From a virus (Duplodnaviria > Caudoviricetes), in the IMG/VR virus record IMGVR_UViG_643348564_000006, positions 941-64,940 of that record: a stretch of DNA of 64,000 nucleotides; one strand, 5' to 3'. Positions 10,701-37,070 of the stretch are shown here, piece after piece; within the stretch, counting starts at the first letter, position 1, and every line of letters begins with the position of its first letter. Under the pieces are notes generated by a model. The model saw only the letters and a program-made list of their open reading frames with translations. It was not told the DNA's origin and searched no databases. The position numbers were made by a program, and so were the translations under genes.

Positions 10701-13700
10701 TTGAGCACCACGGAGGGGCCGGTGTAGCCCGCGAGGCTCGGGAGCCCGTTGACGATGCCGAGGGCGGACAGACCGGAGGCGAGCTTCGACTGGCCAACGG
10801 CGTTGTCGGCGATCTGACTCGCGGCGATCTGGCCGATGAGCTTCGCGGTGCTGATGCCGGCGATCTGGCTATCCGACAGTGTGCCGGCGATCTGGGCCGC
10901 GTTCAGGCTCGCGATCTGGGCGGCCGTGATCTGGCCAGAGATTTGGCCGGCACCGATGCTCGCGATCTGGCTCGCAACCACCTGCCCGACGAGCTTCGCG
11001 GCCGAAACCTGGGCGATCTGGGCGTCCGTGAGGGTGCCGGTGATCTTCGAGGCGGCCAGAGCCGCGATCTTGGCATCCGTGATGGCGCCGGCCGCGATCT
11101 GGGCCTCGCCCAGTTGCCCGGTGATGTCGCCCGCAGCAACGCCGGCGGTCCAGGCCCCGGAGACCAGCCGGTAGACCTTGCCGTCCGCGCCGTTGAGCAC
11201 CACGGACGGGCCCGTGTAGCCGGCCGGGTCCGGCAGGCTGGACACGATCCCGACCGCCGAGAGGCCCAAGGCGAGCTTGGCCTGGGTGACGGCGTTGTCG
11301 GCGAGCTGCGCGGCCGTGAGCTGGCCTTGGATCGCGACCGCATTGATGCTCGCGATCTGATCCGCCGTGAGCTGGCCGGCGACCTTCGTGGCCGCAAGGC
11401 TGACGATCTGGTCGGAGGTGAGTTGCCCGCTGATCTGGGCCGCCGTGATGCTGGCGATCTGCGAGGCGACGATCTGGCCGACAACCTGGGCGGCATTGAT
11501 GCTGGCGATCTGCGAGGCGGTGAGCTGGCCGGCGACCTTCGCTGCCTCAATGGACTGGATCTGGGCGCTGGTGAGGGCGCCCGTGATGTCGACCGCCTGC
11601 ACCGCGGTCGTCCACTGCCCACCCACGAGCCGGTAGAGCTTGCCGTCCGTCGCGTTGTAAGCGAGCGCGGGGCCCGTCCAGGTTGCGGGATCCGGCAGGC
11701 TGGTGACCGCGGTCGGCGCCACGACCGAGGCGGCGAGCTTGGTCTGGTCGATGACACCGTTCTGCAGTGCCGCCGCCGGGAGGGCCGCCGTGGTCGCCGT
11801 CTTCGGGCCGACGAAGTCGCCGGCCGTGCCCGAGCTGTTGACCGGCCGGACCCAGTATTTGCGGGTCTGCACGATCTCCAGGGTGGTGTCGCTGAAGAAG
11901 TTGAGCGGCGCTGGGACTGTCGCGAACAGGCTGGCGTCCGCCCCGTCGTCGCGCGTCCCGACCCACACCTCGATCGCGGCAAGGTCCGGGTCGCTCGGGT
12001 TGACCCACGACAGGCTTGCCGTCCGGTAGGCGGCGTCCACGGTGAAGCTCGTGATCGCGCCGGGCTTCGCGGTGTTCTTGGCCGCGGTGATGGTAGCGAT
12101 CGGGGACCAGCCCGAGACCGCCACCCCGCTGTCGTTCACGGTGCGGACGCGGGCCGTGTAGAGAACGCCCGGCTTGAGGTTGCGCCAGGTGAAGGTCGGC
12201 TGGCCCTTGTCGGCGCGGTCACGGATCCAGGACGAGTTCGTGACGCCGTCGCCCTCCGTCAGCTCGAATTCGTAGATCCCGAGGTTGCTGCTGCCGACCG
12301 GGTTCCAGGTCGCGGTGATCGCGGCCGTCGCCACGCCAGTCGCCGAGACTTCCAGATCCGTCGTCAGGTTGAGCCCGGTCGGGATGTCGGGCGCCTGGAC
12401 GTCGATGATCTTGTTGGTGGTGCGGATCTCGACCTGCGGCGAGATGTTCAGCTCGGCCGGGTTCTTGCCGAAGCTGTCGTAGAAGGCGACCCGCACGTAA
12501 TAGGTCGTCTCGGCCTCGGCCGGCAGCAGCAGGAAGCCGGTCGGGGCGACATCGGCCGCAGGGGACGTGGCGAGCGGGTCGAAGTTGCTCGTCTTGGACA
12601 GCCAGACCAGCACGCCGGCGAGATCGGAGTCCGCCGGCGGGGTCATCCAGACGCCGATGCTCTCCGTCGTCCAGTCCAGCGTCGGGACGACCATGGCGGG
12701 CGCCGGATTGGACACGACGAGCACCGCCGGCTGGCTCTCGCGGCCGATCGCGTCGCGCGCCGCCACCGAGACCCGGAAGCGCCGCCGCGGGCCGCCCTCG
12801 TTGAGGTTCTCCTCGTAGTCGTAGGTCGCCTGCGCGGCGGTGATGATCTCGGTGTGGAGGAGCGCATTCGTGTCCGCGTCGAACACCCGGAAGGCGTAAC
12901 CGACCTCGTAAGGCCTCACGTCCGGCGGCCAGGTCAGGCCCCACTCCAGGGTGCAGCTCCGCCCCGTGAAGACGCTGCCGCCGCCCTTGACCTGCAGGCC
13001 GGTGACGGTGGGCCCGGCAAGCCCTTCCCAGCCCTGGACCGTGTAGGTGATCTGGGCGGCGTCCGACAGGCGCCCGTTCAACCCCTCGGCCTGGACGATG
13101 AAGGTCCACTCGCCCGTGGCCGCGTCGTCAAAGTCCGCCGAGGTGGTGCTGCGCTTCGGTAGGGTCACCAGCGAGCCGTTCGGCTTAATGGCCGTGACGT
13201 AGTAGGCGACCGAGTTGAAGGGCTGGCCAGCCGTCCAGCTGAGGAGCAGGCTCTGCCGCGGCAGGTTGTTCTCAAAGTAGGTGCTTTCCCTCACCGTGAG
13301 GTTCGTCGGGGCGAGAACGACGTTCGGGAACTCGCTGATGTTCAGCGGCTCGAAGGCCGCGCCATCGTCCACCGCCGCATAGATCGAGGGCTCGTGCTGG
13401 AGCGCCTGGATCCCGCAGATGTGCGGCTCGACCTCCTTGATGCCGACGATCCGGAACAGCTGCGGCACCACCTCGCCGGCGATCTGCCACACCGCCGCGG
13501 CGTCCGGCACGGAAGGCAGGGCGGGCGAGATGCTGACCTCGGTGAGGTCGACGCCGGCCAGCGTCGTGATCTGCCGCTCTGCCACGCTGCCGTCCGGCAG
13601 GGTGACGGAGATCTCGTAGGGCACCCCGCTCTTCAGGGTGACCGGCCGATCGAGGAGGAGGGTCGAGGCCGTCGAGCCGGCCTTGAGGCGCCCGCCGGCG

Positions 13701-15280
13701 TCGATGTTGCTGATCTGCGGGTCGGCGATGGCGATGATGTCGCCGGGGCGCCGCACGGCATGGTCGAGGCCCGCCCGGTAGGTGGCGGTCTGCGTCGCAT
13801 AGTTCTCGACCAGGAGGCGCCACAGGCCCTCGCGATGCGCCTGCCCACGCGAGGTGCAGCCGAGCAGGTCGATCTTGGTCGGGTTGTAGCCGTAGCGGGC
13901 AATGCCCTCGCCGTGCTCAACGACCTCGATCTGCGGCTTGAACAGATTGTCCGGGTCGGTCCAGCTGACCAGCGCCACCGTGTGGCGGGCCTTGCGCCCC
14001 GAGGAGCTGTAGGTGATCAGCCCCTCGATGACGTTGGCTGGCGTGACCAGCTGGCGGACGTCGTCGGGCCGGTCCTGGGTGGCCGTGACCGCGCCCGAGG
14101 ACCAGTAGGCCATGCCGCGCCAGATCGCGCTGATCTGCTGGAGCAGGTCGAAGGCGTCCTGCTGAGTGCTGATCTGGGCGTTGAAGCGGAAGCGCGGCTC
14201 CTGGCCGCCCTTGCCGTCCGAGACCAGCACGTCGCAGTAGCGGCCGATCTCGTACAGGGTCCACTTGTCGATGCTCTCGACGCTGATGAACTCGCCGAGC
14301 CCATAGCGGTCGTTCCACAGCACGTCGTAGAAGACCCAGGCCGGATTGTCCGACCACTCCTCCTTGAAGGTGCCATCCCAGATGCCGGAGTAGGTGCGCG
14401 CGACCGGATCGTAGTTCGACGGCACCTTGATGAGCAGGCCGTCCACCAGATAGGTCCGGGCCGGCACCGAGGAGCCGAACTGGCTCGCGTCCGCGGTCAG
14501 GCCGACCAGGGCCGAATGCGGATAGCTGAACTTGGCGTCCTGGATCGCGGTGAGCGAGTAGAAGACGAGATCGCTCTGGCTCGTCCACTTGTCCTGGCTG
14601 GTGTTGAAGCCGTCGGTGTCGTCGGTCAGGCGCGTGACCCGCACCTGCCAGGGCGGGCTCGACCCGGCCGGATTGCGCGGCAGGGCGACCTCGTAGGACA
14701 CGAAGTAAGGCGAGGTGTTCTTGCCGGTGATGGTGAGGTCGCCAAGCTGGTTCACCCATGGCCCGCCGCTGTAGCGGGCCTCGATCCGGAAGCTGACGCT
14801 GTTCTGGCGGACCGAGCCGTCGTTCTTGGCCAGGAACAGGGCCGGCAGCTCGATGATGACGCGGGCCCGGTCCGCCTCGCCGTCGCTGATCGCGGCGGTG
14901 ACCGGCGTCGCCTTGCTGACCTTGACCCCGACCTCCCGCGGCGTCTCCACCTCGGGATAGCCGGGCATGTAGGACTGATCCGGCGTGCCGGTGCGGAAGT
15001 CGGCGCTCAGGCCCTTGAAGTTGAAGGTGCCGTCCGCGTTCTGGACCGGGACGTCGTTGAAGTAGATGCCCTTCAGGCCGCCGACGACGCCCGTGATCTC
15101 GCCCTCGCCGAGCAGGTCCACGAGACGGACCGTCGCGTTCGAGAACAGGGTGTCGGGTGCGCTCGAGCCCGAGCCGCCGGTCTTGCCGCGGCCGGAAGAG
15201 GACTTCCTCCCCCGGATGGGAGCGTCCTGGCGCATGCTGTCCTCCGGCGCGGCGGCCGGATCGAAATCGATGCGGTCCAT
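4715..15280 (-). CDS. Giant tail-tip/host-specificity protein (lambda J-like) with FN3-like domains, repeat shafts and several carbohydrate-binding-like modules
   Basis: N-terminal J-like motifs (DLLGEGEI, GIWDGTF, WSDNPAW, GCTSRGQAHR); 3521 aa; repeated GTITADxIA and GQLTAAQIA units; follows L/K/I genes. Confidence 0.93.
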   Translation of the reverse strand: MDRIDFDPAAAPEDSMRQDAPIRGRKSSSGRGKTGGSGSSAPDTLFSNATVRLVDLLGEGEITGVVGGLKGIYFNDVPVQNADGTFNFKGLSADFRTGTPDQSYMPGYPEVETPREVGVKVSKATPVTAAISDGEADRARVIIELPALFLAKNDGSVRQNSVSFRIEARYSGGPWVNQLGDLTITGKNTSPYFVSYEVALPRNPAGSSPPWQVRVTRLTDDTDGFNTSQDKWTSQSDLVFYSLTAIQDAKFSYPHSALVGLTADASQFGSSVPARTYLVDGLLIKVPSNYDPVARTYSGIWDGTFKEEWSDNPAWVFYDVLWNDRYGLGEFISVESIDKWTLYEIGRYCDVLVSDGKGGQEPRFRFNAQISTQQDAFDLLQQISAIWRGMAYWSSGAVTATQDRPDDVRQLVTPANVIEGLITYSSSGRKARHTVALVSWTDPDNLFKPQIEVVEHGEGIARYGYNPTKIDLLGCTSRGQAHREGLWRLLVENYATQTATYRAGLDHAVRRPGDIIAIADPQISNIDAGGRLKAGSTASTLLLDRPVTLKSGVPYEISVTLPDGSVAERQITTLAGVDLTEVSISPALPSVPDAAAVWQIAGEVVPQLFRIVGIKEVEPHICGIQALQHEPSIYAAVDDGAAFEPLNISEFPNVVLAPTNLTVRESTYFENNLPRQSLLLSWTAGQPFNSVAYYVTAIKPNGSLVTLPKRSTTSADFDDAATGEWTFIVQAEGLNGRLSDAAQITYTVQGWEGLAGPTVTGLQVKGGGSVFTGRSCTLEWGLTWPPDVRPYEVGYAFRVFDADTNALLHTEIITAAQATYDYEENLNEGGPRRRFRVSVAARDAIGRESQPAVLVVSNPAPAMVVPTLDWTTESIGVWMTPPADSDLAGVLVWLSKTSNFDPLATSPAADVAPTGFLLLPAEAETTYYVRVAFYDSFGKNPAELNISPQVEIRTTNKIIDVQAPDIPTGLNLTTDLEVSATGVATAAITATWNPVGSSNLGIYEFELTEGDGVTNSSWIRDRADKGQPTFTWRNLKPGVLYTARVRTVNDSGVAVSGWSPIATITAAKNTAKPGAITSFTVDAAYRTASLSWVNPSDPDLAAIEVWVGTRDDGADASLFATVPAPLNFFSDTTLEIVQTRKYWVRPVNSSGTAGDFVGPKTATTAALPAAALQNGVIDQTKLAASVVAPTAVTSLPDPATWTGPALAYNATDGKLYRLVGGQWTTAVQAVDITGALTSAQIQSIEAAKVAGQLTASQIASINAAQVVGQIVASQIASITAAQISGQLTSDQIVSLAATKVAGQLTADQIASINAVAIQGQLTAAQLADNAVTQAKLALGLSAVGIVSSLPDPAGYTGPSVVLNGADGKVYRLVSGAWTAGVAAGDITGQLGEAQIAAGAITDAKIAALAASKITGTLTDAQIAQVSAAKLVGQVVASQIASIGAGQISGQITAAQIASLNAAQIAGTLSDSQIAGISTAKLIGQIAASQIADNAVGQSKLASGLSALGIVNGLPSLAGYTGPSVVLNSDGKIYRAVGGAWTAGVGASDVTGQLTDAQLAAISATKVSGTLSDDQLAGISAAKLIGQVVAAQVASVNAAVLQGQVTDAQIAGISTAKLAGQITQTQITDGAISTPKLATGAVNADKIEACSILASKLAVASLNLAANGGLQQGTSGWWGAAGGTGITPLVEGIRTDWAPQGMRVFSVRYDDANKPTSGISEIIYANPDATGAQQRIPVTPNARYEFSAYVSAHRCTAYVSIIWWDATGTYITEHGGNNIVATQLGSGSSLADWDRLARSWVIATAPANAASADIRVRWYNFGSNPYCMAGGLFFAQAVEGQTEPSPYSDAGVTTIEGGNVRTSSIYGDRLVARTITAGQIAVGAITATEIAGSTITGDKIAGATITGGLIAGRTISAGHIVAATLTTNEIAARTITATNLAAGTITAYEIAGSAITGDRIAGGTITGGNISGATITGFNISGRTIGAGHIVTGSLTANEIAVNSLTGDRIAGSTITGDRIAGNTITGANISAGTLTARELAAGSVTASKLVLTDPSNMLKNGDFTNPIDGSANSEGWSLGGGDTLIDTSVATDPGGMHRLRSNARDCAYSDPIAVRPGDVINLSARVFNANGERASLMAVLTDAAGGNGQWPTAAYTDLKNQWVDLSGQITIPEGIQRMQVLLLCDKPYAYGSYVYWGKVQARKAANAQMIVDGAITAAKIAAKSITAGQIATGTITATEIAGSTITGDKIAGSTITGTNIAGGTITGSLIAGGTIQAGNLAAGSVTTSKLAVASLNLAPNADCTNVDSSGFVAGWSVGGGNSGAVIVNDGTDTNHAPAGMRAFRCRTNGENIAQGTIAEVHIDRQKTDGNAERISVRAGEYYEISAYLATIRCQAIVGLIWLDNNQSYIGETWGNWTTLDWQGSFYNSVEEWDQYARSKLIVVAPAGAVYAQPRVRFGNTWINGQGWHYVMVSGLMFAKAIEGQTEVSPYSPPGLTTIDGGTIRTGSLHANRIIAGSITADRIAGGTITAGQIAGGTITGDKIAGRTISAGNLVSGTITANEIAGRTITADRIAGGTITAYEIASRTITASQIATGTLTANELAAGSVTTSKLAVSSANFAFNADMAQGLAGWTAGGQTWGGTPDIFVETGWVPSGFKGFAGYGTGWTGAGGQWFDTWHQRIDTSNNLQAFPCYPNTPYEFSAYVTCHRCDAQMHVLWLDSAGNAIRYDGSNVIGQFAKVGGALTDYPRMAILATSPSNAYGFKVLYRGQNITAAGPLIFVVGAMYAAARAGQAECSPYVDPGVTTITGTNITTGSIYGDRLVARTITAGQIAVGAITATEIAANTITADQIAGSTIIGWNIQARTLGAGHIAAGAITAYEIAANTITANQIAGQTIIGWNIAGNTISADKLVANSITAGQISAGAIGVDQLAAGAITADKIGVGLNSTNLLYNSDFRAGTPGVNNWGGGTVPGIYGTWSNLGDLGNRAPYIGLNQSGPGWQPNGMGSLQVSCAGTPPAGYVWDTYASTPKQDGTWSQRFPVVAGKRYEVSGYVSAHRCKAHLIIVWMDANDAYCGEAWTNTVENAMSNGNLSAWARMGCFATAPSNAATAAIYLRTTFNGGDGPYTFWSGLYFGQAKPNQAEYSDWAPGSSTVIWGDTIATGTMNANKITAGTITADRIAANAITGYQIAGTTISGWHIQSNSIYADKIQVGGGQSLTSWMGSDTTKINGGAIEANSIRVNALTVALRGVRTVGIDFSVDKNTRTVSWTGGHVLWIDDAGNNVASWCPGGSGNAGATLCYIWWDKRRPNQLNFAANNWPDIFADKNTVLMCSYDGYAGLNPTYGGTIIDGSRINTGTITANQIAANAIQASHIAAGQITAEKIGAGQVTADKIGAGMITAGVIQIGGNNFVLEAPNNTGLGRMYCRDSNGTLRVAVGYINDLSGGGWGLAMWDDASNLILNGTGVNGGGLWVNSVSANKLSVTQLSAITANVGTMTAGLLQSGDGQMQVDLNNKRIIIWG

Positions 15281-28958: not shown

Positions 28959-29912
28959 TCAGATCCCGTCGAGGTAGCGGAAAGCGCCGGGGCGCCGGAT
29001 GTCGACGCCGCCCAGGCGGAAGGCGCCGGGCACGTCGAAGCGGAAGGGCCCGGTCTGCCACGCCGGGAAGAACCGGAAGGGCATGGGCATCCAGAGCTTC
29101 ACGACCTCCGGGTCGCGCAGGTACGCGACCATTCGGGCGGTCCCGCCGGCGCCCGCCGTCTCCAGGCCGCGCACGCCGAACACGTTGAGCGGCTGGCCGG
29201 TCTCGATGGTGTAGACGTTCTTCCGCTGGATCCAGTCCAGCAGAGTCATCTGGTTGTACTGGTCGATGCGCCGCAGGCTCAGCGCGATCATCTGCTCGTA
29301 GGGCAGCAGCGCCGTGTCCGCCAGCTCGACGGTGTTGGAGCCGGTGAAGATGCCGGTCAGCAGCCCGTTGACGTCGGCCAGCACAAGCTCCGGATCCTTA
29401 TCGGCCCAGCGCGTGCTGCCGCCCGCGCCCGTGGGAGCCGCCGAACCCTGGGTGACGGCCGGGCTGTTGACGAGGCCGCTGTAGCCCTTGGCCGGGTCAC
29501 CGAACAGGGCAACCCGGTCGATGAACTCCTCGGAGGCACGCCGCGCGGCCGCGGCCTTGTCCGCCGAGAGGCTCATGTTCATCAGCTGCGCCTTGCCGAG
29601 CTCCTCGAGGTCGTAGCCGTAGCCGATGCCGGCCATCGAGACCGTGGTCTCGAACTGGCTGCGGAGCACGTCGGCCCGCGGCACGTCGTTGGCCTGGCCG
29701 GTGATCCACTTGGCGGCCCCGACCTGATCCAGCGAGAAGTAGGTGACCGAGGGGATCCACTCGGGGGCGTTGGTGTCCACCGGGACAAGCCGCGGGTAGC
29801 GGATCTCGGGGTACCGCGTCCGATACACCTGGGGCTCGATGAACGTCTGCTGGCTGACCAGGAAGGCCAGAGCACGGCGCATGTCGGCATCAGTGAAGAA
29901 CTGGCCTCGCAT
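28959..29912 (-). CDS. Major capsid protein (DUF2184-like, HK97 fold)
   Basis: YPRLVPV..GYGYDLEEL.KA..GLVN..G..GGVDIRRP.A.RYLDGI. Confidence 0.92.
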   Translation of the reverse strand: MRGQFFTDADMRRALAFLVSQQTFIEPQVYRTRYPEIRYPRLVPVDTNAPEWIPSVTYFSLDQVGAAKWITGQANDVPRADVLRSQFETTVSMAGIGYGYDLEELGKAQLMNMSLSADKAAAARRASEEFIDRVALFGDPAKGYSGLVNSPAVTQGSAAPTGAGGSTRWADKDPELVLADVNGLLTGIFTGSNTVELADTALLPYEQMIALSLRRIDQYNQMTLLDWIQRKNVYTIETGQPLNVFGVRGLETAGAGGTARMVAYLRDPEVVKLWMPMPFRFFPAWQTGPFRFDVPGAFRLGGVDIRRPGAFRYLDGI

Positions 29913-29972: not shown

Positions 29973-30416
29973 TCAGGGGAGGTTGAGCTTCAGCTTGACG
30001 AGCGCGCCGCTCGCGCCGCTGCTGTCGAACACGGCCCGCAGCGCCGTGTTGTCCGTGGCGGTGACCGTGAAGGCGCCAGCAGCGGTCAGGTAGGCGGGGG
30101 CGCCGGCCGTGACGGGTCCGGAGGCCTTCACCCAGACGGTGCCGCGCTCCATCACCGACACCGTGTCGCCCTTCGGGTGCAGGTCGCCCGTGGCGTTCGC
30201 CAGCGGGAAGTGATCGGCGACCGTGACACCGCGGAACACCGAGCCGGTGGCGGCGATGCCGTTGGCATCGGCGCCCTGGAAGGCCGGCTTGCCGAAGCCG
30301 ATCCCACCGGCCGACTCGATGACGCGGGAGATGATCCCGCCCGGCTCCATGGAGGCGATCATGCCCTCGAAGGCCGGGGCCATCTCGCCGGGATACGTGG
30401 TCTGAACCGCAGGCAT
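29973..30416 (-). CDS. Capsid decoration/cement protein
   Basis: AFEGMIA..GIGFG..V.VM.RGTVWV..G.PAY; before capsid gene. Confidence 0.8.
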   Translation of the reverse strand: MPAVQTTYPGEMAPAFEGMIASMEPGGIISRVIESAGGIGFGKPAFQGADANGIAATGSVFRGVTVADHFPLANATGDLHPKGDTVSVMERGTVWVKASGPVTAGAPAYLTAAGAFTVTATDNTALRAVFDSSGASGALVKLKLNLP

Positions 30417-30469: not shown

Positions 30470-31690
30470 TTACTGCGCCGCCTGACCGGGCCGCTCCTTG
30501 TAGGCGTTGGTGAGATAGTCGACGTTCGCTGCGTAAGCGTCCGCGAGGACGTTCTGACCGCCGGCCGGCTTGATGCCGTCCGCGATGGTGCGGGCGAGGG
30601 GATCGGCCGGCTTGTGGTCCTTGGCGATCGCCAGGAAGGCGCCCTCGACCGCGCCGTCCGTGAGATCCTTGGCGCTGTCGCCGAGGCGGGCGGACACGAC
30701 CTCGCGGCGGATCTGGGCGTCGGTCTTGCCGGCATCCGTGAAGGTCGCGCCGATCACGCTCTTGGCCACGTCGATGACGCTGGCACGCGCCGCCACCGCG
30801 GCCGCCAGCTTATCGGGCGTAAGGGCCGCATCCTCGACCTGCTTCTTGAGGACCGCGATCTCGCCGTCCTTGGCCTCGATGGTCTTGCGCGCCTCGGCGA
30901 GCTCGCCATCCTTCGCCTCGATCGCCCGGGCGTGGGTCGAATTCGCCTCGTTCAGCTGCGTGGTGAGCGACACGTTGTCCGTCGTCAGCTGGCCGATCTG
31001 CTTCTGCAGGCCGGACACCGCGACCACCGCAGCGTCGCTCATCTCGACGGTGTGGCCGTCGATTGTCAGGGTCTTCATGGGGATGGCATCCCTCTGCTGT
31101 TGCTGGTCGGAGAGCACCCGCATGGTCTTCACGTCGGCGGGGTGCTGATCGCCGATGCGGCAGTCGGGGCCGGCCCGCCCGCGATCCACGATCGCGACGT
31201 GATCGACCACGATGTTGGTCTGGCGGGCGTCGTAGGGCCGCCCATCCGGGGTGGTGCCGGGGGTGAAGTCGAGGTCGCAGGTGTAGCCGACCGACAGCTC
31301 TCGCTTGCCGTTCTTGACGGCCTCGATGGCGCCCTGGTCCGCGATGAGCATCGGGATCCGGACGAACTCGCCGTCGCGCAGCACCTCCTCGCCGACGTGC
31401 CCTCGCGCCACGCTCCGCCAGGTGGCCGGGGTGACGGGGGAGGACGGGTGATCGAGGGTGACCGGCTTGTGGCCGAAGGTGCGCAGGGAATCGGCCCGGA
31501 ATACCTCGTCGGCGTCTCGGTAGATCCGGACGATCGGCATCTCGGGCTTGCCCACCTCGGCGCCCTGGTAGAGCTGCACGTTGCCCCCCTGGGCGGCCTT
31601 GGCCTGGACGACGAGCGAGCCGTTGCGCATCTCGCGTGCGTTCGCGATCTCGGCGGCCTCGCCGAGCGACAGGTGATCGAAGAACTGCAT
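30470..31690 (-). CDS. Prohead protease-scaffold fusion (DUF2213-like)
   Basis: PVTLDHP..ELSVGY.C..DHVAIVDRGRAG, then coiled-coil scaffold. Confidence 0.9.
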   Translation of the reverse strand: MQFFDHLSLGEAAEIANAREMRNGSLVVQAKAAQGGNVQLYQGAEVGKPEMPIVRIYRDADEVFRADSLRTFGHKPVTLDHPSSPVTPATWRSVARGHVGEEVLRDGEFVRIPMLIADQGAIEAVKNGKRELSVGYTCDLDFTPGTTPDGRPYDARQTNIVVDHVAIVDRGRAGPDCRIGDQHPADVKTMRVLSDQQQQRDAIPMKTLTIDGHTVEMSDAAVVAVSGLQKQIGQLTTDNVSLTTQLNEANSTHARAIEAKDGELAEARKTIEAKDGEIAVLKKQVEDAALTPDKLAAAVAARASVIDVAKSVIGATFTDAGKTDAQIRREVVSARLGDSAKDLTDGAVEGAFLAIAKDHKPADPLARTIADGIKPAGGQNVLADAYAANVDYLTNAYKERPGQAAQ

Positions 31691-31764
31691 GGGGATCCTG
31701 CCTGAAGGCCCGCCGGCGGATGGCGTTGTTGAAGCGCGGACGCTGCGGCGCTATATTTGGGTCA

Positions 31765-31828
31765 GTCGCGAGCCGTTTTGGACGTAAAGCTCGGGGGGAT
31801 CTTCGGATCAGGCATCGAGCATCGCGAC
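31765..31828. ncRNA. Candidate structured RNA/DNA element immediately downstream of the PBECR-like domain
   Basis: Nested pairings GTCGCGA/TCGCGAC, GCTCG/CGAGC and GATC-TTCG-GATC (cUUCGg loop on plus strand). Confidence 0.35.
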
Positions 31829-31831
31829 ACC

Positions 31832-32233
31832 TCACCTCTTCCACATCGACACCATCTCGATCCGTCGTTTCGCACGCTGAACCTCCCCGATGTAGGTATA
31901 GGTTCGCCCGCGGATCGACTTCTCAATGATGATTCGCGGCTGGCCATTCGCTGGGTTCGGGTCACCCGGCAAGAGTCTGTCCGGCTGCCGAACGATCTCG
32001 CGAGCGAGTGCGAAATCCAGCTGTGTGATGGCGACTTGGCCGCGCGCTGCCTCAGCTTTTGCATTGCCATGCTTCTTCAGCGTGTGGCTAATACCATCCT
32101 GTGAGATCGAGTGCCGGAAGCCTCGAACGTCGATGTTAGTCAATCTGCCGATTTCGCCCGACCGCGACACCCGACCCAACGAGGCGCGCAGCACGCCGGA
32201 ACGTGGCTGGCCAACAGCCTCGAGGAGTTGGGC
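31832..32233 (-). pseudogene. Orphaned 3' part of the portal fusion: PBECR-like (RelE/colicin E5-fold) RNase domain
   Basis: ISHTLKKHG..E..RGQ.AIT..DF..IVRQPD..R..IEK..TY.GEV..VSMWK; in frame with the portal ORF once the IS630 and one TA are removed. Confidence 0.75.
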
Positions 32234-32235
32234 TA

Positions 32236-33293
32236 GAGCGGGGTCCGAGCGGGTTGAAACCGTGGTGATGGCAACGCGTTGGCCGGTCCCCGGGGGGGCG
32301 GCTCAACGGAGGTGGCCCATGCCCTCAGCTTTGTCTGTCGACCTGCGCCAGCGCGTCGTCTCGGCCGTTGCAGAAGGCGCCTCCTGCCATCAGGCCGCCG
32401 CGCGCTTCGGGGTCAGCGTGGCCAGCGTCAGCCGCTGGTCCAGGCAGCAGGAGGGCCAGGGAGATGTCACGCCCAAGCCCATGGGCGGCGACCAGCGCTC
32501 GCAGCGCATCGAGGCTCATGCCGAGCTCATCCTGCAGACCTACCAAGCCCACCCGCAGAGCTTCCTGCATGAGCTCTGCGAGACGCTCCAGGAGCAAGGC
32601 GTTCCGGTCAGCCGCAGTAGCCTGTCGCGCTTCTTCGCCCGGCACCGCATCACGCGGAAAAAAGGGCGACGTACGCAGCTGAGCAGGAGCGGGAGGATGT
32701 AAAGGCGGCTCGTGAGGCGTGGTTTGCCGGCCAGCTTGAGCTGGATCCGGAGCGACTGGTGTTCCTGGATGAGACCGCCGCCACCACCAGCATGGTCCGC
32801 CGCTACGGCTGGGCCCCGCGCGGCGAGCGTTGCCGCCTCGCGGCACCCGCAGGGCACTGGAAAACCACCACTGTGATTGCCGGGCTGCGCACGAGCGGGC
32901 CTGACGCGATCGCTCTGCTGGACGGCCCTGTGACGGGCGAACGCTTCCGCGCCTACGTGACCGACACCCTGGTCCCCACCCTGAGACCCGGCGACACCGT
33001 GATCCTGGACAATCTGGGCGCTCACAAGGTGGCCGGCGTGCGCGAGGCGATCGCGGCAACCGGGGCCCGGCTGCTTTATCTTCCTCCGTACTCACCTGAG
33101 TTCAACCCGATTGAGCAGGCCTTCGCCAAGCTGAAAGCGCTGTTGCGCAGGGCGGCGGCCCGCAGTGTCAGTGAACTCTGGGCGGCGATCCACCAAGCCT
33201 TCAAATGCTTCTCGCCGGCTGAGTGCCGCAACTACTTCACAGCTGCTGGATACGAGGATGATGCTTACGCTTCAACCTGATCGGGAGCGGCTC
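32236..33293 (+). mobile_element. IS630-family insertion sequence (1058 bp, TA duplication)
   Basis: TA at 32234-35 and 33294-95; imperfect terminal IRs GAGCGGGGTCCGA / GAGCCGCTCCCGA (rc). Confidence 0.93.
32319..33280 (+). CDS. IS630 transposase (HTH + DDE, -1 frameshift at A6G 32658-64)
   Basis: MPSALSVDLRQRVV HTH; -1 frame gives VFLDE..VILDNL..H..LPPYSPEFNPIE. Confidence 0.93.
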
Positions 33294-35261
33294 TAGGCCA
33301 GAGGTCCACCGCCCGCGCGCGTCACGCCGCTGGTTCGGGTTGTACGCGTCCCGAAAAGGGAGGGTGGCGTTCGGCCCACCTCCCAGGCTGTCCTCGGCGA
33401 GCCTTGCCCGCCAGTTCTCGGTGATCGGCTCGAAGATCTCCGGCCCGAACACGAGCGGCCCGTTGTAGGGCTGGACCTGATCCAGATCGACGCCGTCGGC
33501 CGAGAGCGCGAAGCTGACGTGCGGCTGGTAGTCCGGGTGGTCCCACGCCGCGCCGGCGTCCCGGATCTCCTGCCAGCGCCAGCGCAACTCGCTGGATGAG
33601 AACAGCAGAACGACGACATCGCCGAAGCGCTCGACGAGGCGCGGCCCGCCAGCCTCGACCTTGAGCTCGGCGCCCTGCCAGGTCGGGCCGACCGCCATCC
33701 AGTCCACGGGCTGGCGGCTGTAGGCGATGGTCACGTGGAGCTCACCGGCCGGATAGAGATCGGTGAAGCCCTGGCTCTTCGCCCAGGCGAGGAGATCGGC
33801 GCCATTGAGCAGCTTGCGGCTGACGTAGAGCGTGCGGGGCGCGGCATCGGCAACCTGCTGGCCGCCGGCCACTCGGCCGCGGAGCGGGACCACGTTGCCG
33901 GTGCCGGTGAAGCCCTCGGCCGGCTGGCCGTCCGGCCCGAACTGGTCGGCGTCGAGCTCGCCCTCGGTCAGCGGCGCGTCGCCGTGCTCCTCATAGGCTG
34001 CGTCGATACCCGGGAAGAGGCCGCTGTCGACCGCGGCGCCCTTGGTGCCTTGCGCGAGGATTTCCAGAGGCGCGAGCTTAGCCTTGGCGAGGACCGCCAC
34101 CGCGTCCGCCACCGTCTTGAAGGCGTCGGCCTTCTCCTTCTGGGTCGGCTGGTAGAGCGGGTTCCACTCGTACCAAACCTCGGGCGGACGGGCGCCGAGC
34201 GCGTGGCGGATCAGCAGCTCGTCGAGGCGGCGGATCGCCGGGGTGAGCTCCACCTTCTGCCGGGCCGCCACGTGGTCGTAGTAGTTGCGGGTGTCGCTGT
34301 CCCCAGTGGCGTTGAGACCGGACGGCGACTGGCCGAGCAGGCGTGTCGCCGGGATGTCGGCCGCGCCGGCCGCGATGAGCAGGAACAGCCGCACCACGTC
34401 GGGCAGGCCAGCAAAGCTGATCTGCTTCTGCTCGAACACCTCGCCGTCGGGGCTCTTCCCATCGCCCTCCAGCAGGAGCATGCCGAACATGCTCTTCATC
34501 CGGGCGGCGTAGGCGAAGCGGTCGGTGAGCCGCCGGGTGCCCTCCTCGGTCGAGAGATGCTGCGACAGGCCCGGGACGCTGATGACGTCCTGCTTGGCCT
34601 CGGGCAGCATGGCGTTGACGTAGGCGGCCGAAGACGTGGCCTGGTCCACGGCCTCGAACACGGCCTGCAGCACGCTGTCGCCCCAGCCCCGCTCGGTCGC
34701 GCTCTGCACGCTCTCCAGAATGGGCGCGCCGATGAGACGGACCACGCGGGAGGGGTGGATCGCCTGCTGGCCGCGCGTCGCGCTGACGAGCTGCCAGGAC
34801 ACGGGCTCCCCGAACCAGGGCGAGGCCGGATCCCGGTCCGGCTCGCCGGGCGTGATCTCCTCCCGGCCGAGCACGTGGAGGTAGCGGATGCTGCCCTTGC
34901 CCAGGCGCTCCGGCACCAATGGCTGCGCCGGATCCGACGCTCCATCACCGATGAGGAGCGCTGCGCCGCCGTCGCGCCGGGCCATCCGCAGGCCGTCGAG
35001 CAGCTTCTGCCGGACGCCGAGCGCGGTTTCCGCTGCCTCGATCGCCTCGACCTGCGCATCCTCCGCCTTCCAGGCGCGCCACTCGCGCAGCATGTCGAAG
35101 GCGACCACGTCCACGACCTTGCGGGCGATCCAGTTGCCCCGATAGGCCGCCTGGATCTCGGGCAGGGGCCGCGGGACGAAGACGTGGACGTTGCCGACCG
35201 TCTTGTCCTTGGCCGTGCCGAGGCCGGAGATCAGGTTGAAGAGGTTGTCGACGAGCCACAT
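33237..35261 (-). CDS. Portal protein (DUF1073-like) fused to an Acb1/gp57B-like 2H phosphoesterase; C-terminus truncated by IS630
   Basis: Portal motifs (AAY..NWIARK.VD, WGDSVL, IP.T.LLGQSP.G.NATG.SD..YYD); C-terminal LYV..LHVTIAYSR..VLLF.S..L..GA.WDHPDYQPHVS; last 18 aa come from IS antisense sequence. Confidence 0.9.
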   Translation of the reverse strand: MWLVDNLFNLISGLGTAKDKTVGNVHVFVPRPLPEIQAAYRGNWIARKVVDVVAFDMLREWRAWKAEDAQVEAIEAAETALGVRQKLLDGLRMARRDGGAALLIGDGASDPAQPLVPERLGKGSIRYLHVLGREEITPGEPDRDPASPWFGEPVSWQLVSATRGQQAIHPSRVVRLIGAPILESVQSATERGWGDSVLQAVFEAVDQATSSAAYVNAMLPEAKQDVISVPGLSQHLSTEEGTRRLTDRFAYAARMKSMFGMLLLEGDGKSPDGEVFEQKQISFAGLPDVVRLFLLIAAGAADIPATRLLGQSPSGLNATGDSDTRNYYDHVAARQKVELTPAIRRLDELLIRHALGARPPEVWYEWNPLYQPTQKEKADAFKTVADAVAVLAKAKLAPLEILAQGTKGAAVDSGLFPGIDAAYEEHGDAPLTEGELDADQFGPDGQPAEGFTGTGNVVPLRGRVAGGQQVADAAPRTLYVSRKLLNGADLLAWAKSQGFTDLYPAGELHVTIAYSRQPVDWMAVGPTWQGAELKVEAGGPRLVERFGDVVVLLFSSSELRWRWQEIRDAGAAWDHPDYQPHVSFALSADGVDLDQVQPYNGPLVFGPEIFEPITENWRARLAEDSLGGGPNATLPFRDAYNPNQRRDARGRWTSGLEPLPIRLKRKHHPRIQQL

Positions 35262-36733
35262 CAGCCGGTCACCGCCAGCATGCCGTAGGCCGGTTTCGCG
35301 ACCTCGCCGAAGGCGCGCGACAGCGCATCGACCTGGTCCTTGAAGGCGCCGTTCGGGAAGGACGCGACCTCATCGAGGAAGGCGTCGTTCCAGGCCCCCT
35401 CGACAAGCACGATGTTGCCCGCCTCGGCCTGGGCGGAGACCGGCTCGGCCCGGGTGACCTTGTCCCCGCTCTCAGGCGTGGCCCGCACGACGAAGCCCTC
35501 GAGCTGGCGGATCAGATACTGCGCCTGGGCCTTGCCGGCCTGCCCAGGATCCTGGGGGAGCGAGATGCGGCAGTCGCGGCCGTCCTGCTGGGCCGTGTTG
35601 ACGATCATGCGCTCCACCCCGCCGGGCGACAGCCGATCCCGGCGCACGTCCGCGATGTAGAGCCGCTTGTCCGGGCCGCGCCCGAGCTTCAGGCCGGCGG
35701 TGTAGGCGGGCTGGCTGCCCTGCTTGGCCTCGCTGGCGGCGAGGTCCCAGGCCCGCACCCAGACGCAGCCCGCCGGCGCGGCGCGCACGACGGAGAACCA
35801 GGAGCGCTTGAACAGGCCGCCCTCGCGCGGGGCCGGGCGCTGCTGGTACTGCCCCGCGTAGGCGTAGGAGCCGGCATCGCGCTTCAGCGCCTCGACGGTG
35901 GCGCGCGGGAATCGCACCGGGTCGAGGAGCTCGCCGTCCTGCGTCCGCGGGTCGACGAAGAAGGGCGTCCGGCACCGCCGCTCCGGCTCGAACTCCATCG
36001 GCAGGCAGAGGTGGGTGTAGCCCATGCCGAGCTTCAGGATCGTGCCCGAGATGTCGTCCTCGTGCAGGCGCTGCATCACCACCACGATCGCCGATCGCTC
36101 CTGGTCGTTGAGGCGGTTGATCGCGCCCTCGCGGAACTTGCGGGTGGTCCGGTTGCGCTCGGCCGCGCTCTCGGCGGTCTCCGTGCTATGGGGATCGTCA
36201 ATCAGCAATCTGTCCCCACGCTGCGAGGTGAGCGATCCGAACGGCACGCCCTCGCGGGTCCCCGTCGAGCTGTTCGCGAAACTCGTCTCGCCGGCGCGGC
36301 TCAACACGACCTCGGGCCACAGGCGGCGGTACCAGGGCGACAGGACGAGGTCGCGCATCTTGCGGGTGTCGCGCGTCACCGGCCCGTCGTTGAAGGCGGT
36401 GGCGAGGTAGCGCAGGGAGCGCCGCCCCTTCGGGCCCCACTCCCAGGCCGGCCAGATCACCGAGACGACGAGGCTTTTCGACGAGCCGGGCGGCACGTTG
36501 ATCAGGAGCCGGTTCAGCCGCCCGGCCGTGATCGCCTCGAGGTGGACGCAGAACGCGTCAAGGTGCCAGTTCCAGATCAGCGGGGCGTTGGGCTCCAGAA
36601 CGTGCCAGGCCTCGCGCACGAACCCGGCGAGGGATTGGCAGCGGGCCCGGATGACCTCGGCGTCGCGGTCGAGGGCTTGCCGTTGGGCCTCAGCCGTCCG
36701 CCGGGCCCTCTCCTCCCTCACCATCCTCAGCAT
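35261..36733 (-). CDS. terL: Terminase large subunit
   Basis: LLINVPPGSSKS Walker A, LLIDDPH Walker B, WDLAAS and DQVDA nuclease motifs; start uncertain (36724-36793). Confidence 0.95.
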   Translation of the reverse strand: MLRMVREERARRTAEAQRQALDRDAEVIRARCQSLAGFVREAWHVLEPNAPLIWNWHLDAFCVHLEAITAGRLNRLLINVPPGSSKSLVVSVIWPAWEWGPKGRRSLRYLATAFNDGPVTRDTRKMRDLVLSPWYRRLWPEVVLSRAGETSFANSSTGTREGVPFGSLTSQRGDRLLIDDPHSTETAESAAERNRTTRKFREGAINRLNDQERSAIVVVMQRLHEDDISGTILKLGMGYTHLCLPMEFEPERRCRTPFFVDPRTQDGELLDPVRFPRATVEALKRDAGSYAYAGQYQQRPAPREGGLFKRSWFSVVRAAPAGCVWVRAWDLAASEAKQGSQPAYTAGLKLGRGPDKRLYIADVRRDRLSPGGVERMIVNTAQQDGRDCRISLPQDPGQAGKAQAQYLIRQLEGFVVRATPESGDKVTRAEPVSAQAEAGNIVLVEGAWNDAFLDEVASFPNGAFKDQVDALSRAFGEVAKPAYGMLAVTG

Positions 36734-37070
36734 CACCGCCGGCGGTGCCGGCAAGCGGACCGAGGAGAGCTTCGAGCGCGTCAAGCTGCTCATTCGTGGC
36801 CCTGGTCAGGTCGGCGGTGAGGATTGGCCCGTTGTTCGGTCCAGTGTGGGCCACCGCCTGAAGGCGAGGGTGCATGTAGGGGGCAGCATCCTTGGCGAGC
36901 GCCGCGGCCTGATCCCAGCGCCGAGCCTTCGCGTGGCGGCGCATGGCGGTCAGCATCACTTCGAGGGGCGATATGCCCTCGGCCGATGCGCGGGCGACGA
37001 TCTCCTGCGACCGCCGCGTGATGGAGCCCTTCTTACGCCCGGCACCGGCGCGCCTACCGCCGTGCGCCAT
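36690..37070 (-). CDS. terS: Terminase small subunit
   Basis: GGRRAGAGRKKG..PLEVML..AK.AAPYMHPRL; upstream of TerL. Confidence 0.8.
   Translation of the reverse strand: MAHGGRRAGAGRKKGSITRRSQEIVARASAEGISPLEVMLTAMRRHAKARRWDQAAALAKDAAPYMHPRLQAVAHTGPNNGPILTADLTRATNEQLDALEALLGPLAGTAGGDAEDGEGGEGPADG

What the first reader, a model, noticed from the sequence alone, without database searches (positions are those of the whole stretch)
31832..35261. Portal protein carrying an anti-CBASS Acb1-like nuclease and a PBECR-like RNase (789-aa tripartite fusion)
Seen: the portal ORF continues through an acidic linker into a domain at about 33390-33840 with two 2H motifs, HVT (33729-37) and HVS (33513-21). 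Its sequence LYV..LHVTIAYSR..VLLF.S..L..GA.WDHPDYQPHVS..EIFEP...W parallels T4 gp57B/Acb1 as I recall it. It is followed by YNPNQRRDARGRWTS, a motif typical of MuF/polyvalent proteins. Removing IS630 and one TA gives ...WTSGL-AQLLEAVGQPRSGVLRASLG... in frame into the 31832..32233 nuclease-like domain (656+133 aa). Established: Acb1 degrades CBASS cyclic nucleotides, and polyvalent phage proteins carry 2H and PBECR domains. Inference: a virion-borne effector cassette on the portal, possibly processed by the prohead protease and injected with DNA, combining immune-signal destruction with an RNase.
Basis: partly seen in the sequence, partly recalled or inferred. Interest (0 to 1): 0.9.

Follow-up and report, generated by a model that had tools for sequence, protein, structure and literature searches.

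The report
IS-broken phage portal with Acb1 and RNase
A prophage portal gene really does carry an Acb1-type (anti-CBASS family) phosphodiesterase domain and, before a recent IS630 jump cut it off, a PBECR3 RNase domain, but this portal-plus-effector design is already common in databases and was described in 2017.

Summary
The minus-strand ORF 33237-35261 has a Phage_portal_3 domain (E 7e-125) and a full-length Acb1 domain (PF23474, E 2.7e-40). Both 2H motifs are present, HVT at 33729-37 and HVS at 33513-21. A 1058-bp IS630 element (32236-33293) sits in a CTAG site with a TA duplication and has 14 identical copies in the genome. Removing it joins the ORF in frame to a PBECR3 domain (31832-32233, E 5.6e-16), giving 789 aa. 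IS-free proteins of the same three-part design exist, and the joined C-terminus aligns with them along its length.

The design is not new. More than 1200 portal-Acb1 proteins are in the database, and NCBI names some of them Acb1 family proteins. PHROG 146 models the portal with this domain. The solved Pam3 portal (8HDS) aligns over the portal and Acb1 parts (aa 4-622). Iyer et al. 2017 described 2H and PBECR domains fused to portals and predicted nucleotide-signal degradation.

The PBECR3 unit is a lower-GC3 cassette in a variable slot between portal and head protease. The IS target was the only CTAG in 14.7 kb, so chance is enough to explain the insertion point. Cleavage by the protease and injection remain untested. 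The scan's other notes are all on this same window.

Verdict: a new, IS-disrupted member of a known kind, of modest interest.

The parts
35261..36793 (-). Terminase large subunit, directly upstream of the portal gene
   Evidence: Terminase_6C, E 5e-15. Its stop overlaps the portal start codon.
33987..35261 (-). Portal core (aa 1 to about 425; Pfam Phage_portal_3 covers aa 35-389)
   Evidence: PF06381 E 7e-125. phrog_146 E 3e-131. Pam3 portal 8HDS E 1.4e-134.
33855..33986 (-). Acidic, Gly/Pro-rich linker between the portal core and the 2H domain (aa about 426-469)
   Evidence: Read from the translation. No Pfam domain here. Disorder is inferred, not measured.
33405..33836 (-). Acb1-family 2H phosphodiesterase domain (aa 476-619), with HVT at 33729-33737 and HVS at 33513-33521
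   Evidence: PF23474 E 2.7e-40, full length. AF2 model pLDDT 87; Foldseek 7T26 E 7e-9, TM 0.73/0.82. Catalytic His residues invariant.
33294..33392 (-). Connector that comes with the cassette (GGGPNATLPF..AYNPNQRRDARGRWTSGL, aa about 624-656)
   Evidence: Aligns with the same connector in the IS-free tripartite proteins. Absent from the three paralogous portals of this genome, which end just after Acb1. The motif is unique in the genome.
33237..33293 (-). IS-encoded tail of 18 codons plus stop that now ends the portal ORF
   Evidence..TSGL then EPLPIRLKRKHHPRIQQL, then stop.
32236..33293 (+). IS630-family insertion sequence, 1058 bp. Its DDE_3 transposase reads on the + strand in two frames. 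TA duplication at 32234-32235 and 33294-33295.
   Evidence: DDE_3 E 3.5e-35. 14 identical copies. CTA|IS|TAG flanks and imperfect terminal inverted repeats.
31832..32233 (-). Severed PBECR3 RNase domain (133 codons plus stop), formerly the C-terminus of the portal protein
   Evidence: PF18812 E 5.6e-16. AF2 pLDDT 93. Best structural neighbours are BECR RNase toxins: BrnT Z 7.4, a Salmonella toxin-antitoxin toxin 7VD7 Z 6.8, CdiA-CT, RelE, colicin D. Family-conserved H50, H55, G56, E61, R64, G65, Q66, D73 are kept. GC3 is 0.70 against 0.93 for the portal.
30470..31690 (-). Head maturation protease (DUF2213), next gene downstream. DNA homology with the paralogous prophages resumes here.
   Evidence: PF09979 E 8e-60. 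phrog_530 E 2e-94. blastn to a paralog resumes at 31693.

Best explanation
This is the portal gene of a prophage in a high-GC alphaproteobacterium. The nearest relatives are from Methylobacterium. It belongs to the large DUF1073/phrog_146 portal family, in which an Acb1-type 2H phosphodiesterase is fused to the portal C-terminus.

This copy also acquired a lower-GC3 cassette: a connector plus a PBECR3 metal-independent RNase domain. That made a 789-aa three-part 'polyvalent' portal. A currently active IS630 element then inserted into the only CTAG site of the head module, which lies at the border between connector and RNase.

The gene now encodes portal-Acb1-connector with an 18-residue IS-derived tail. 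The RNase domain is an orphan fragment with no obvious start signal.

Shown here:
- the domain identities;
- the intact catalytic motifs;
- the exact insertion site and the in-frame pre-insertion state;
- the cassette nature of the RNase unit;
- the prevalence of the architecture.

Inferred:
- The 2H domain hydrolyses cyclic di- and trinucleotide immune signals of the CBASS type, as T4 and FBB1 Acb1 do.
- It sits on the capsid-interior side of the portal, 12 copies per particle.
- It acts either as free or procapsid portal late in infection, when CBASS is triggered by assembly proteins, or after proteolytic release and ejection.
- The PBECR3 domain was an RNA-cleaving effector aimed at the host, and its loss is probably neutral or mildly beneficial to the lysogen.
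For: Domain calls and motifs:
- Domain calls.
- Invariant HxT / Hx(S/T) motifs.
- Alignment to the Acb1 catalytic motifs and the C-terminal Trp.
- Acb1 fold match.
- BECR fold neighbours.
- Conserved PBECR3 residues kept.

Insertion:
- IS limits from 14 identical copies.
- CTAG/TA target.
- In-frame 789-aa join, colinear with the IS-free tripartite proteins.
- The target was the only CTAG between 24053 and 38796.

Cassette:
- GC3 0.70 against 0.93.
- Three paralogous portals end just after Acb1.
- DNA homology with a paralog stops near 33400 and resumes at 31693.

Prevalence:
- 1232 portal-Acb1 hits, some with PBECR3 or an ADP-ribosyltransferase as third domain.
- The phrog_146 profile spans the 2H domain.
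- The Pam3 portal 8HDS aligns over aa 4-622.

Literature:
- 2H and PBECR fusions to portal and MuF, with predicted degradation of defence nucleotides: PMC5512222.
- Acb1 mechanism and catalytic tetrad: PMC9117128.
- CBASS activation tied to late assembly: 10.1101/2023.05.21.541620.
Against: - No enzymatic or phenotypic data exist for any portal-tethered Acb1 domain in the papers I could search.
- Identity to characterised Acb1 is only about 25%.
- The second catalytic motif is HVS rather than HxT.
- In the tripartite form the Acb1 C-terminal lid is no longer a free C-terminus.
[quoted passage not shown] The location and integrity of the 2H domain in virions are therefore unknown.
- A domain covalently bound to the portal cannot leave the capsid without cleavage, and no cleavage site is known.
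Confidence: 0.8

Rival explanations
1. Injected effector. The head maturation protease cuts the acidic linker and/or the NPNQ..GRW connector inside the procapsid. This frees Acb1, and formerly PBECR3, which are ejected with the DNA and act at the very start of the next infection.
For: - The protease gene lies immediately downstream.
- Long low-complexity linkers flank the effector domains.
- The connector recurs upstream of variable C-terminal domains on head proteins.
- Iyer et al. predict packaging and injection of portal- and MuF-fused effectors and cite T4 Alt as a packaged, injected enzyme.
- An Acb1-DUF2213 fusion (P0064) shows the domain also travels with another head-internal protein.
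Against: - No cleavage site, mass-spectrometry data or structural data are available.
- The portal itself stays in the particle.
- CBASS is reported to fire late, on assembly proteins, so an enzyme delivered early is not obviously needed.
Confidence: 0.3
2. The 2H domain is not an anti-CBASS enzyme. It is an RNA-end or 2'-5' phosphodiesterase of the LigT/CPDase type. It might heal or process RNA ends, for example those made by host anticodon nucleases or by the fused RNase, or degrade other signals such as cyclic oligoadenylates.
For: - phrog_755 ('RNA ligase') matches aa 488-619, E 9e-19.
- There are weak 2_5_RNA_ligase2 / LigT matches.
- LigT and CPDase structures are significant Foldseek neighbours.
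- Iyer et al. considered RNase or 2'-5' oligoadenylate roles.
- The physical link to an RNase domain is suggestive.
Against: - The specific Acb1 model scores far better (137.8 bits against 17.5 for 2_5_RNA_ligase2, which is below its cut-off).
- The top structural matches are Acb1 and a phage phosphodiesterase, ahead of LigT.
- The Acb1 C-terminal Trp (the lid Trp by its position; my mapping) and the Glu of the PEIFE stretch are conserved.
- Most family members carry no RNase at all.
Confidence: 0.12
3. The IS insertion was selected because leaky expression of the RNase harmed the lysogen. On this view the break is an adaptive detoxification of the prophage rather than a chance hit.
For: - Only the RNase domain is removed, while portal and Acb1 stay open.
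- There is no immunity-like ORF in the 140-nt gap after the RNase.
- The same IS also breaks the large terminase of a paralogous prophage, which fits IS-driven prophage taming.
Against: - The IS inserts only at CTAG. That site is about 12-fold under-represented, and this was the only one in 14.7 kb of head genes, so chance suffices.
- Sense-strand RNA over the portal and RNase region is about zero in two RNA runs, which fits a repressed late operon that would not be toxic.
- 14 identical copies show a recent burst that hit many loci.
Confidence: 0.15
4. The RNase was never fused. It was a separate gene downstream of the portal, and the in-frame join is a coincidence.
For: In Rhizobium phage RHph_N28_2 a PBECR3-like protein is a standalone gene between portal and head precursor. 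Short proteins that carry connector plus PBECR3 also exist: P0124 and P0137.
Against: - The join has no stop codon and no start or RBS context.
- The joined sequence aligns residue by residue with the IS-free fused proteins across connector and domain.
- The connector that precedes the break is absent from the paralogs that lack the RNase.
Confidence: 0.03

Closest known systems
Acb1 (T4 gp57B; Erwinia phage FBB1 Acb1, PDB 7T26/7T27; Pfam PF23474)
   Same: Full-length match to the family model. Same 2H fold (TM 0.73/0.82). Two catalytic His motifs, and conserved C-terminal Trp and Glu.
   Different: It is a C-terminal domain of a portal rather than a free protein of about 150 aa. Identity to FBB1 Acb1 is about 25%. 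The second motif is HVS. In the pre-IS form a further domain follows the lid. No activity data exist.
Portal gp3 of cyanophage Pam3 (PDB 8HDS) and the phrog_146 / DUF1073 portal family
   Same: Aligns over aa 4-622, including the 2H domain, E 1.4e-134. The neighbouring genes are the same: cement protein, DUF2213 protease and PF09950 capsid.
   Different: By its length and aligned range, Pam3 gp3 (621 aa) ends about two residues after the aligned Acb1 part, like this genome's three paralogs. The window copy has the extra connector and RNase cassette and an IS break.
Polyvalent proteins: portal- and MuF-fused 2H and PBECR domains (Iyer, Burroughs, Anand, de Souza, Aravind 2017, PMC5512222)
   Same: Same idea and same domains. 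Effector domains are fused to head proteins of terminase-portal phages, are predicted to be packaged, and the 2H domain is predicted to degrade defence nucleotides.
   Different: The text I read describes the two fusions separately. Here both effectors sit on one portal, and the last one has been cut off by an IS.
IS-free tripartite portal-Acb1-PBECR3 proteins (P0004 from Methylobacterium sp. ID0610, 1086 aa; P0020 768 aa; P0023 801 aa; P0099 797 aa)
   Same: Same three Pfam domains in the same order, with the same connector. Five genomes of the same genus carry long open frames that end in a PBECR3 about 53% identical.
   Different: The RNase part is only 41-54% identical. P0004 has an insert of about 300 aa. 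No near-identical IS-free allele was found.
T4 Alt and other packaged, injected phage enzymes
   Same: An enzyme carried in the head and delivered with the DNA. This is the analogy used for polyvalent proteins.
   Different: Alt is a separate protein targeted to the capsid. Here the enzyme is covalently part of the portal, and no release has been shown.

Membership tests
Acb1 (PF23474) | Score above the curated family cut-off over the whole model | tested here: met
   137.8 bits against 27, profile positions 1-143 of 144.
Acb1 (PF23474) | 2H phosphoesterase fold most similar to solved Acb1 | tested here: met
   AF2 pLDDT 87. The top Foldseek hits are 7T26 and 7T27, E 7e-9, TM 0.73/0.82.
Acb1 (PF23474) | HxT/HxT catalytic tetrad | tested here: met
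   HVT at 509-511 and HVS at 581-583. The second motif has Ser, a usual 2H variant. The His residues are invariant in 27 relatives and align with the FBB1 motifs.
Acb1 (PF23474) | Base-stacking aromatic residues, adenine-contacting Glu and C-terminal lid Trp | tested here: inconclusive
   W617 and E608 align with a Trp and a Glu of 7T26, and the aromatic residues are conserved in the family. The N-terminal Tyr was not aligned by HMMER, and residue numbering against the paper was not resolved.
Acb1 (PF23474) | Cleavage of 3'3'-cGAMP/cAAA and rescue from CBASS | not testable with these tools
   Needs biochemistry and plaque assays.
Phage_portal_3 / DUF1073 portal (PF06381, phrog_146) | Family model match, homology to a solved dodecameric portal, and position next to the large terminase | tested here: met
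   E 7e-125. phrog_146 E 3e-131. 8HDS E 1.4e-134. TerL lies directly upstream.
PBECR3 (PF18812) | Score above the curated cut-off | tested here: met
   58.9 bits against 30. 1319 relatives at E <= 1e-3.
PBECR3 (PF18812) | BECR fold (N-terminal helix followed by a 4-5 stranded sheet) | tested here: met
   AF2 pLDDT 93. Nearly all top VIA-align rows are BECR RNase toxins: BrnT Z 7.4, a Salmonella toxin-antitoxin toxin (7VD7) 6.8, CdiA-CT 5.8, RelE 5.5, colicin D 5.0. The Z values are middling, and Foldseek alone gave no hit below E 1e-3.
PBECR3 (PF18812) | Conserved His in the N-terminal helix plus a C-terminal Ser/Thr active-site configuration | tested here: inconclusive
   H50 and H55 and the RGQ and D73 positions are kept. 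Which Ser/Thr is catalytic was not identified.
PBECR3 (PF18812) | RNase activity | not testable with these tools
   Needs expression and RNA cleavage assays.
Polyvalent phage proteins (Iyer et al. 2017) | Two or more conflict-related effector domains in one polypeptide fused to a virion (portal/MuF) module in a head gene cluster | tested here: met
   The pre-IS protein is portal + Acb1 + PBECR3, lying between TerL and the head protease. The definition is from PMC5512222.
IS630 family | DDE_3 transposase, terminal inverted repeats, TA duplication at a CTAG-type target, multiple copies | tested here: met
Polymorphic toxin with cognate immunity gene | Immunity ORF immediately downstream of the toxin domain | tested here: not met
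   The gap to the protease gene is 140 nt and has no ORF of 50 aa or more in sense and no evident short one. RHph_N28_2 also has no annotated gene in the gap.

The most novel reading that the evidence does not exclude
The C-terminus of this portal family is a modular delivery platform. A conserved connector (GGGPNA..PF..NPxQxRDxxGRW) marks a swap point and a head-protease cleavage site. Twelve copies each of a cyclic-nucleotide phosphodiesterase and a variable effector (RNase, ADP-ribosyltransferase or an unknown domain) would then be freed inside the capsid and ejected ahead of or with the DNA, pre-arming the phage against signalling defences.
Probability: 0.2. Interest if true: 0.6.

Novelty: new member of a known kind. 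Interest (0 to 1): 0.3.

Why it matters
Acb1 has been studied as a small free protein of T4-like phages. In more than a thousand prophages and phages of proteobacteria and cyanobacteria the same enzyme is welded to the portal, and I found no test of that form in the papers searched.

The open question is whether a portal-tethered phosphodiesterase acts in the cytoplasm late in infection or is released and injected. That question bears on when CBASS-type signalling matters during infection.

This locus adds three small points:
- The slot after Acb1 accepts swappable effector cassettes.
- The RNase cassette is dispensable enough to be lost to an IS.
- An active IS630 is eroding the head modules of two related prophages in one genome.

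None of this changes current understanding. It gives a convenient natural 'domain deletion' next to intact relatives.

Tried and rejected
- IS-free allele: none found. The closest PBECR3 relatives are 59% identical or less. The genus-wide search gave at most 54%. Laying two DNA and two RNA runs showed no read or contig that skips the IS. The DNA contigs stop 16-24 nt inside the IS, as expected at a repeat.
- Expression: no listed holder of the stretch is on record as RNA. In the two RNA runs laid, sense-strand depth over the portal and RNase region is about zero, and many reads come from paralogs. This does not show the gene is silent in general.
- PBECR3 against solved structures by sequence: no hit even at E 10. 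Foldseek gave nothing below E 1e-3. PHROGs gave no family at 1e-5.
- CD-NTase in the host: PF18144 (SMODS) was not found in the complete genome. This says nothing about the phage's other hosts, and other cyclase families were not searched.
- Immunity gene after the RNase: none.
- Terminator inside the IS that could make the insertion polar: the scan found one weak site, within the chance expectation.
- Literature link between Acb1 and portals: Hobbs 2022, the 2025 2H-PDE survey and two 2026 reviews do not mention portal fusions. The Pam3 paper does not mention the 2H domain.


Full report
**Layout**

The minus strand of the window carries a phage head module:

| Coordinates | Gene |
|---|---|
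| 35261-36793 | large terminase |
| 33237-35261 | 674-aa ORF, the portal |
| 32236-33293 | IS630-type element |
| 31832-32233 | 133-codon open piece |
| 30470-31690 | DUF2213 head maturation protease |
| 29973-30416 | cement protein |
| 28959-29912 | major capsid protein |

The genome is 8.8 Mb in 8 contigs and is high in GC. The nearest protein relatives come from Methylobacterium. The 7,772,460-bp chromosome matches my memory of M. nodulans ORS 2060, but I did not verify that.

**Checking the observation**

- Pfam places Phage_portal_3 at aa 35-389 (E 7e-125).
- Pfam places a complete Acb1 domain at aa 476-619 (E 2.7e-40, 137.8 bits against a cut-off of 27).
- Their His residues are invariant in 27 relatives of 53-76% identity.
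- They align with the catalytic motifs of FBB1 Acb1. Hobbs et al. define the tetrad as H44/T46/H113/T115 (PMC9117128).
- An AlphaFold model of the domain (pLDDT 87) has 7T26 and 7T27 as top Foldseek hits (E 7e-9, TM 0.73/0.82). These rank ahead of another phage phosphodiesterase and LigT.

**The insertion**

- Searching the genome with 32236-33293 returned 14 copies, each 100% identical over exactly 1-1058. That fixes the IS ends.
- All eleven insertions inspected (this one and the ten other copies fetched as loci) are flanked CTA|IS|TA(G/A), 10 of 11 TAG. The target is therefore CTAG-like, with TA duplicated.
- The pre-insertion sequence was GGC CTA GCC.
- Removing the IS and one TA gives one 789-aa frame reading ...GRWTSGL-AQLLEAV....
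- The downstream piece is a PBECR3 domain (E 5.6e-16, 58.9 bits against 30).
- Its model (pLDDT 93) has a neighbour list made almost wholly of BECR RNase toxins: BrnT, a Salmonella toxin-antitoxin toxin (7VD7), CdiA-CT, RelE, colicin D and colicin E5. The Z values are middling at 5-7.4.
- The residues that are nearly invariant in 32 family members are all kept.

**Was it really one protein?**

Yes. The joined C-terminus aligns along its length with IS-free proteins that carry the same three Pfam domains. These are P0004 (1086 aa, Methylobacterium sp.), P0020 (768 aa), P0023 (801 aa) and P0099 (797 aa). The alignment includes the connector GGGPNA..PF..NPxQxRDxxGRW. Five other genomes of the genus have frames of 1089-1573 aa that end in a PBECR3 about 53% identical.

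**A cassette in a variable slot**

- The genome holds three more portal-Acb1 genes, about 75% identical. All end a few residues after the Acb1 domain.
- DNA similarity to a paralogous prophage stops near 33400 and resumes at 31693, the protease start.
- The connector motif is unique in the genome.
- The RNase piece has GC3 of 0.70 against 0.93 for the portal.
- Elsewhere the same position carries an ADP-ribosyltransferase, unknown domains, or a free-standing PBECR3 gene, as in Rhizobium phage RHph_N28_2.
- PBECR3 is also fused to other portals and to MuF.

**How new is it?**

- The search from the Acb1 part returned 1232 proteins. Nearly all of the 120 listed carry portal plus Acb1, and NCBI names some of them 'anti-CBASS protein Acb1 family protein'.
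- The PHROG portal family 146 models the 2H domain as part of the portal.
- The solved Pam3 portal aligns over aa 4-622. Its paper does not discuss that domain.
- Iyer et al. 2017 described fusions of 2H and of PBECR domains to portal and MuF. They proposed packaging and injection, and suggested the 2H domains degrade nucleotides of defence systems.
- The Acb1 literature I could read does not mention portal fusions.
- So the enzyme in this context is predicted and catalogued, but I found no test of it.

**Mechanism**

- Shown: an intact catalytic set in a bona fide Acb1-family fold at the portal C-terminus.
- Inferred: the domain hydrolyses CBASS-type cyclic oligonucleotides. It lies inside the capsid, because portal C-termini (crown and barrel) face the interior.
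- One route to the substrate is that free or procapsid portal acts late. This fits the report that CBASS activation is tied to late assembly.
No data here separate the two.

**Why the IS is there**

CTAG occurs 16 times in the window against about 190 expected from base composition. Two of those 16 are the halves of this one site. No other CTAG lies between 24053 and 38796. Chance is therefore enough to explain an insertion at the RNase border.

The same IS also splits the large terminase of a paralogous prophage.

The portal ORF now ends 18 codons into the IS. Shorter natural portals end just after Acb1, so the truncated protein is probably functional. Polarity on the downstream head genes is unknown.

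Public reads showed no IS-free form and almost no sense RNA over the locus.

**Verdict**

The delivery model is untested. The finding is an IS-disrupted member of a known and abundant class.

Noticed in passing
G000:C1:6362663-6363720 (outside the window; paralogous prophage): The same 1058-bp IS630 copy interrupts the large terminase gene of a related prophage. tblastn with the window's TerL matches on both sides of the IS, aa 1-361 and 345-508, at about 73% identity. Two of the four related prophages therefore have IS hits in their head or packaging genes.
   Followed up: partly
G000:C1:6576047-6577105 (outside the window): One of the four portal-Acb1 genes is N-terminally truncated. The open frame is 352 aa, of which about 310 aa match the window's portal (its aa ~305-620). 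This looks like a decayed prophage copy.
   Followed up: no
window 4715-15280 (-): A single 3521-aa ORF with gene-like GC3 (0.92) lies in the tail region of the same prophage. Another note of this scan covers it.
   Followed up: no
window 31712-32203 (+ strand RNA): The low-depth RNA-seq reads here lie with their first mate on the - strand, which in most stranded libraries means + strand RNA. That is antisense to the RNase piece and runs toward the IS transposase. A sigma-70-like site lies at 31729-31757 (+). Depth is only 1-5, so this is a hint at most.
   Followed up: partly
window-wide: CTAG is about 12-fold under-represented: 16 sites against about 190 expected from base composition. This channels the active IS630 into very few sites.
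   Followed up: partly
P0064 (metagenomic protein, 485 aa): Here an Acb1 domain is fused to the N-terminus of a DUF2213 head protease instead of to the portal. The domain can evidently attach to either neighbour in this slot. Alternatively the gene call merges two genes.
   Followed up: no
G000:C1:7076931-7077373 (paralog slot between portal stop and protease): In a paralogous prophage the same slot holds about 440 bp of unrelated high-GC sequence with small ORFs instead of the RNase cassette.
   Followed up: partly
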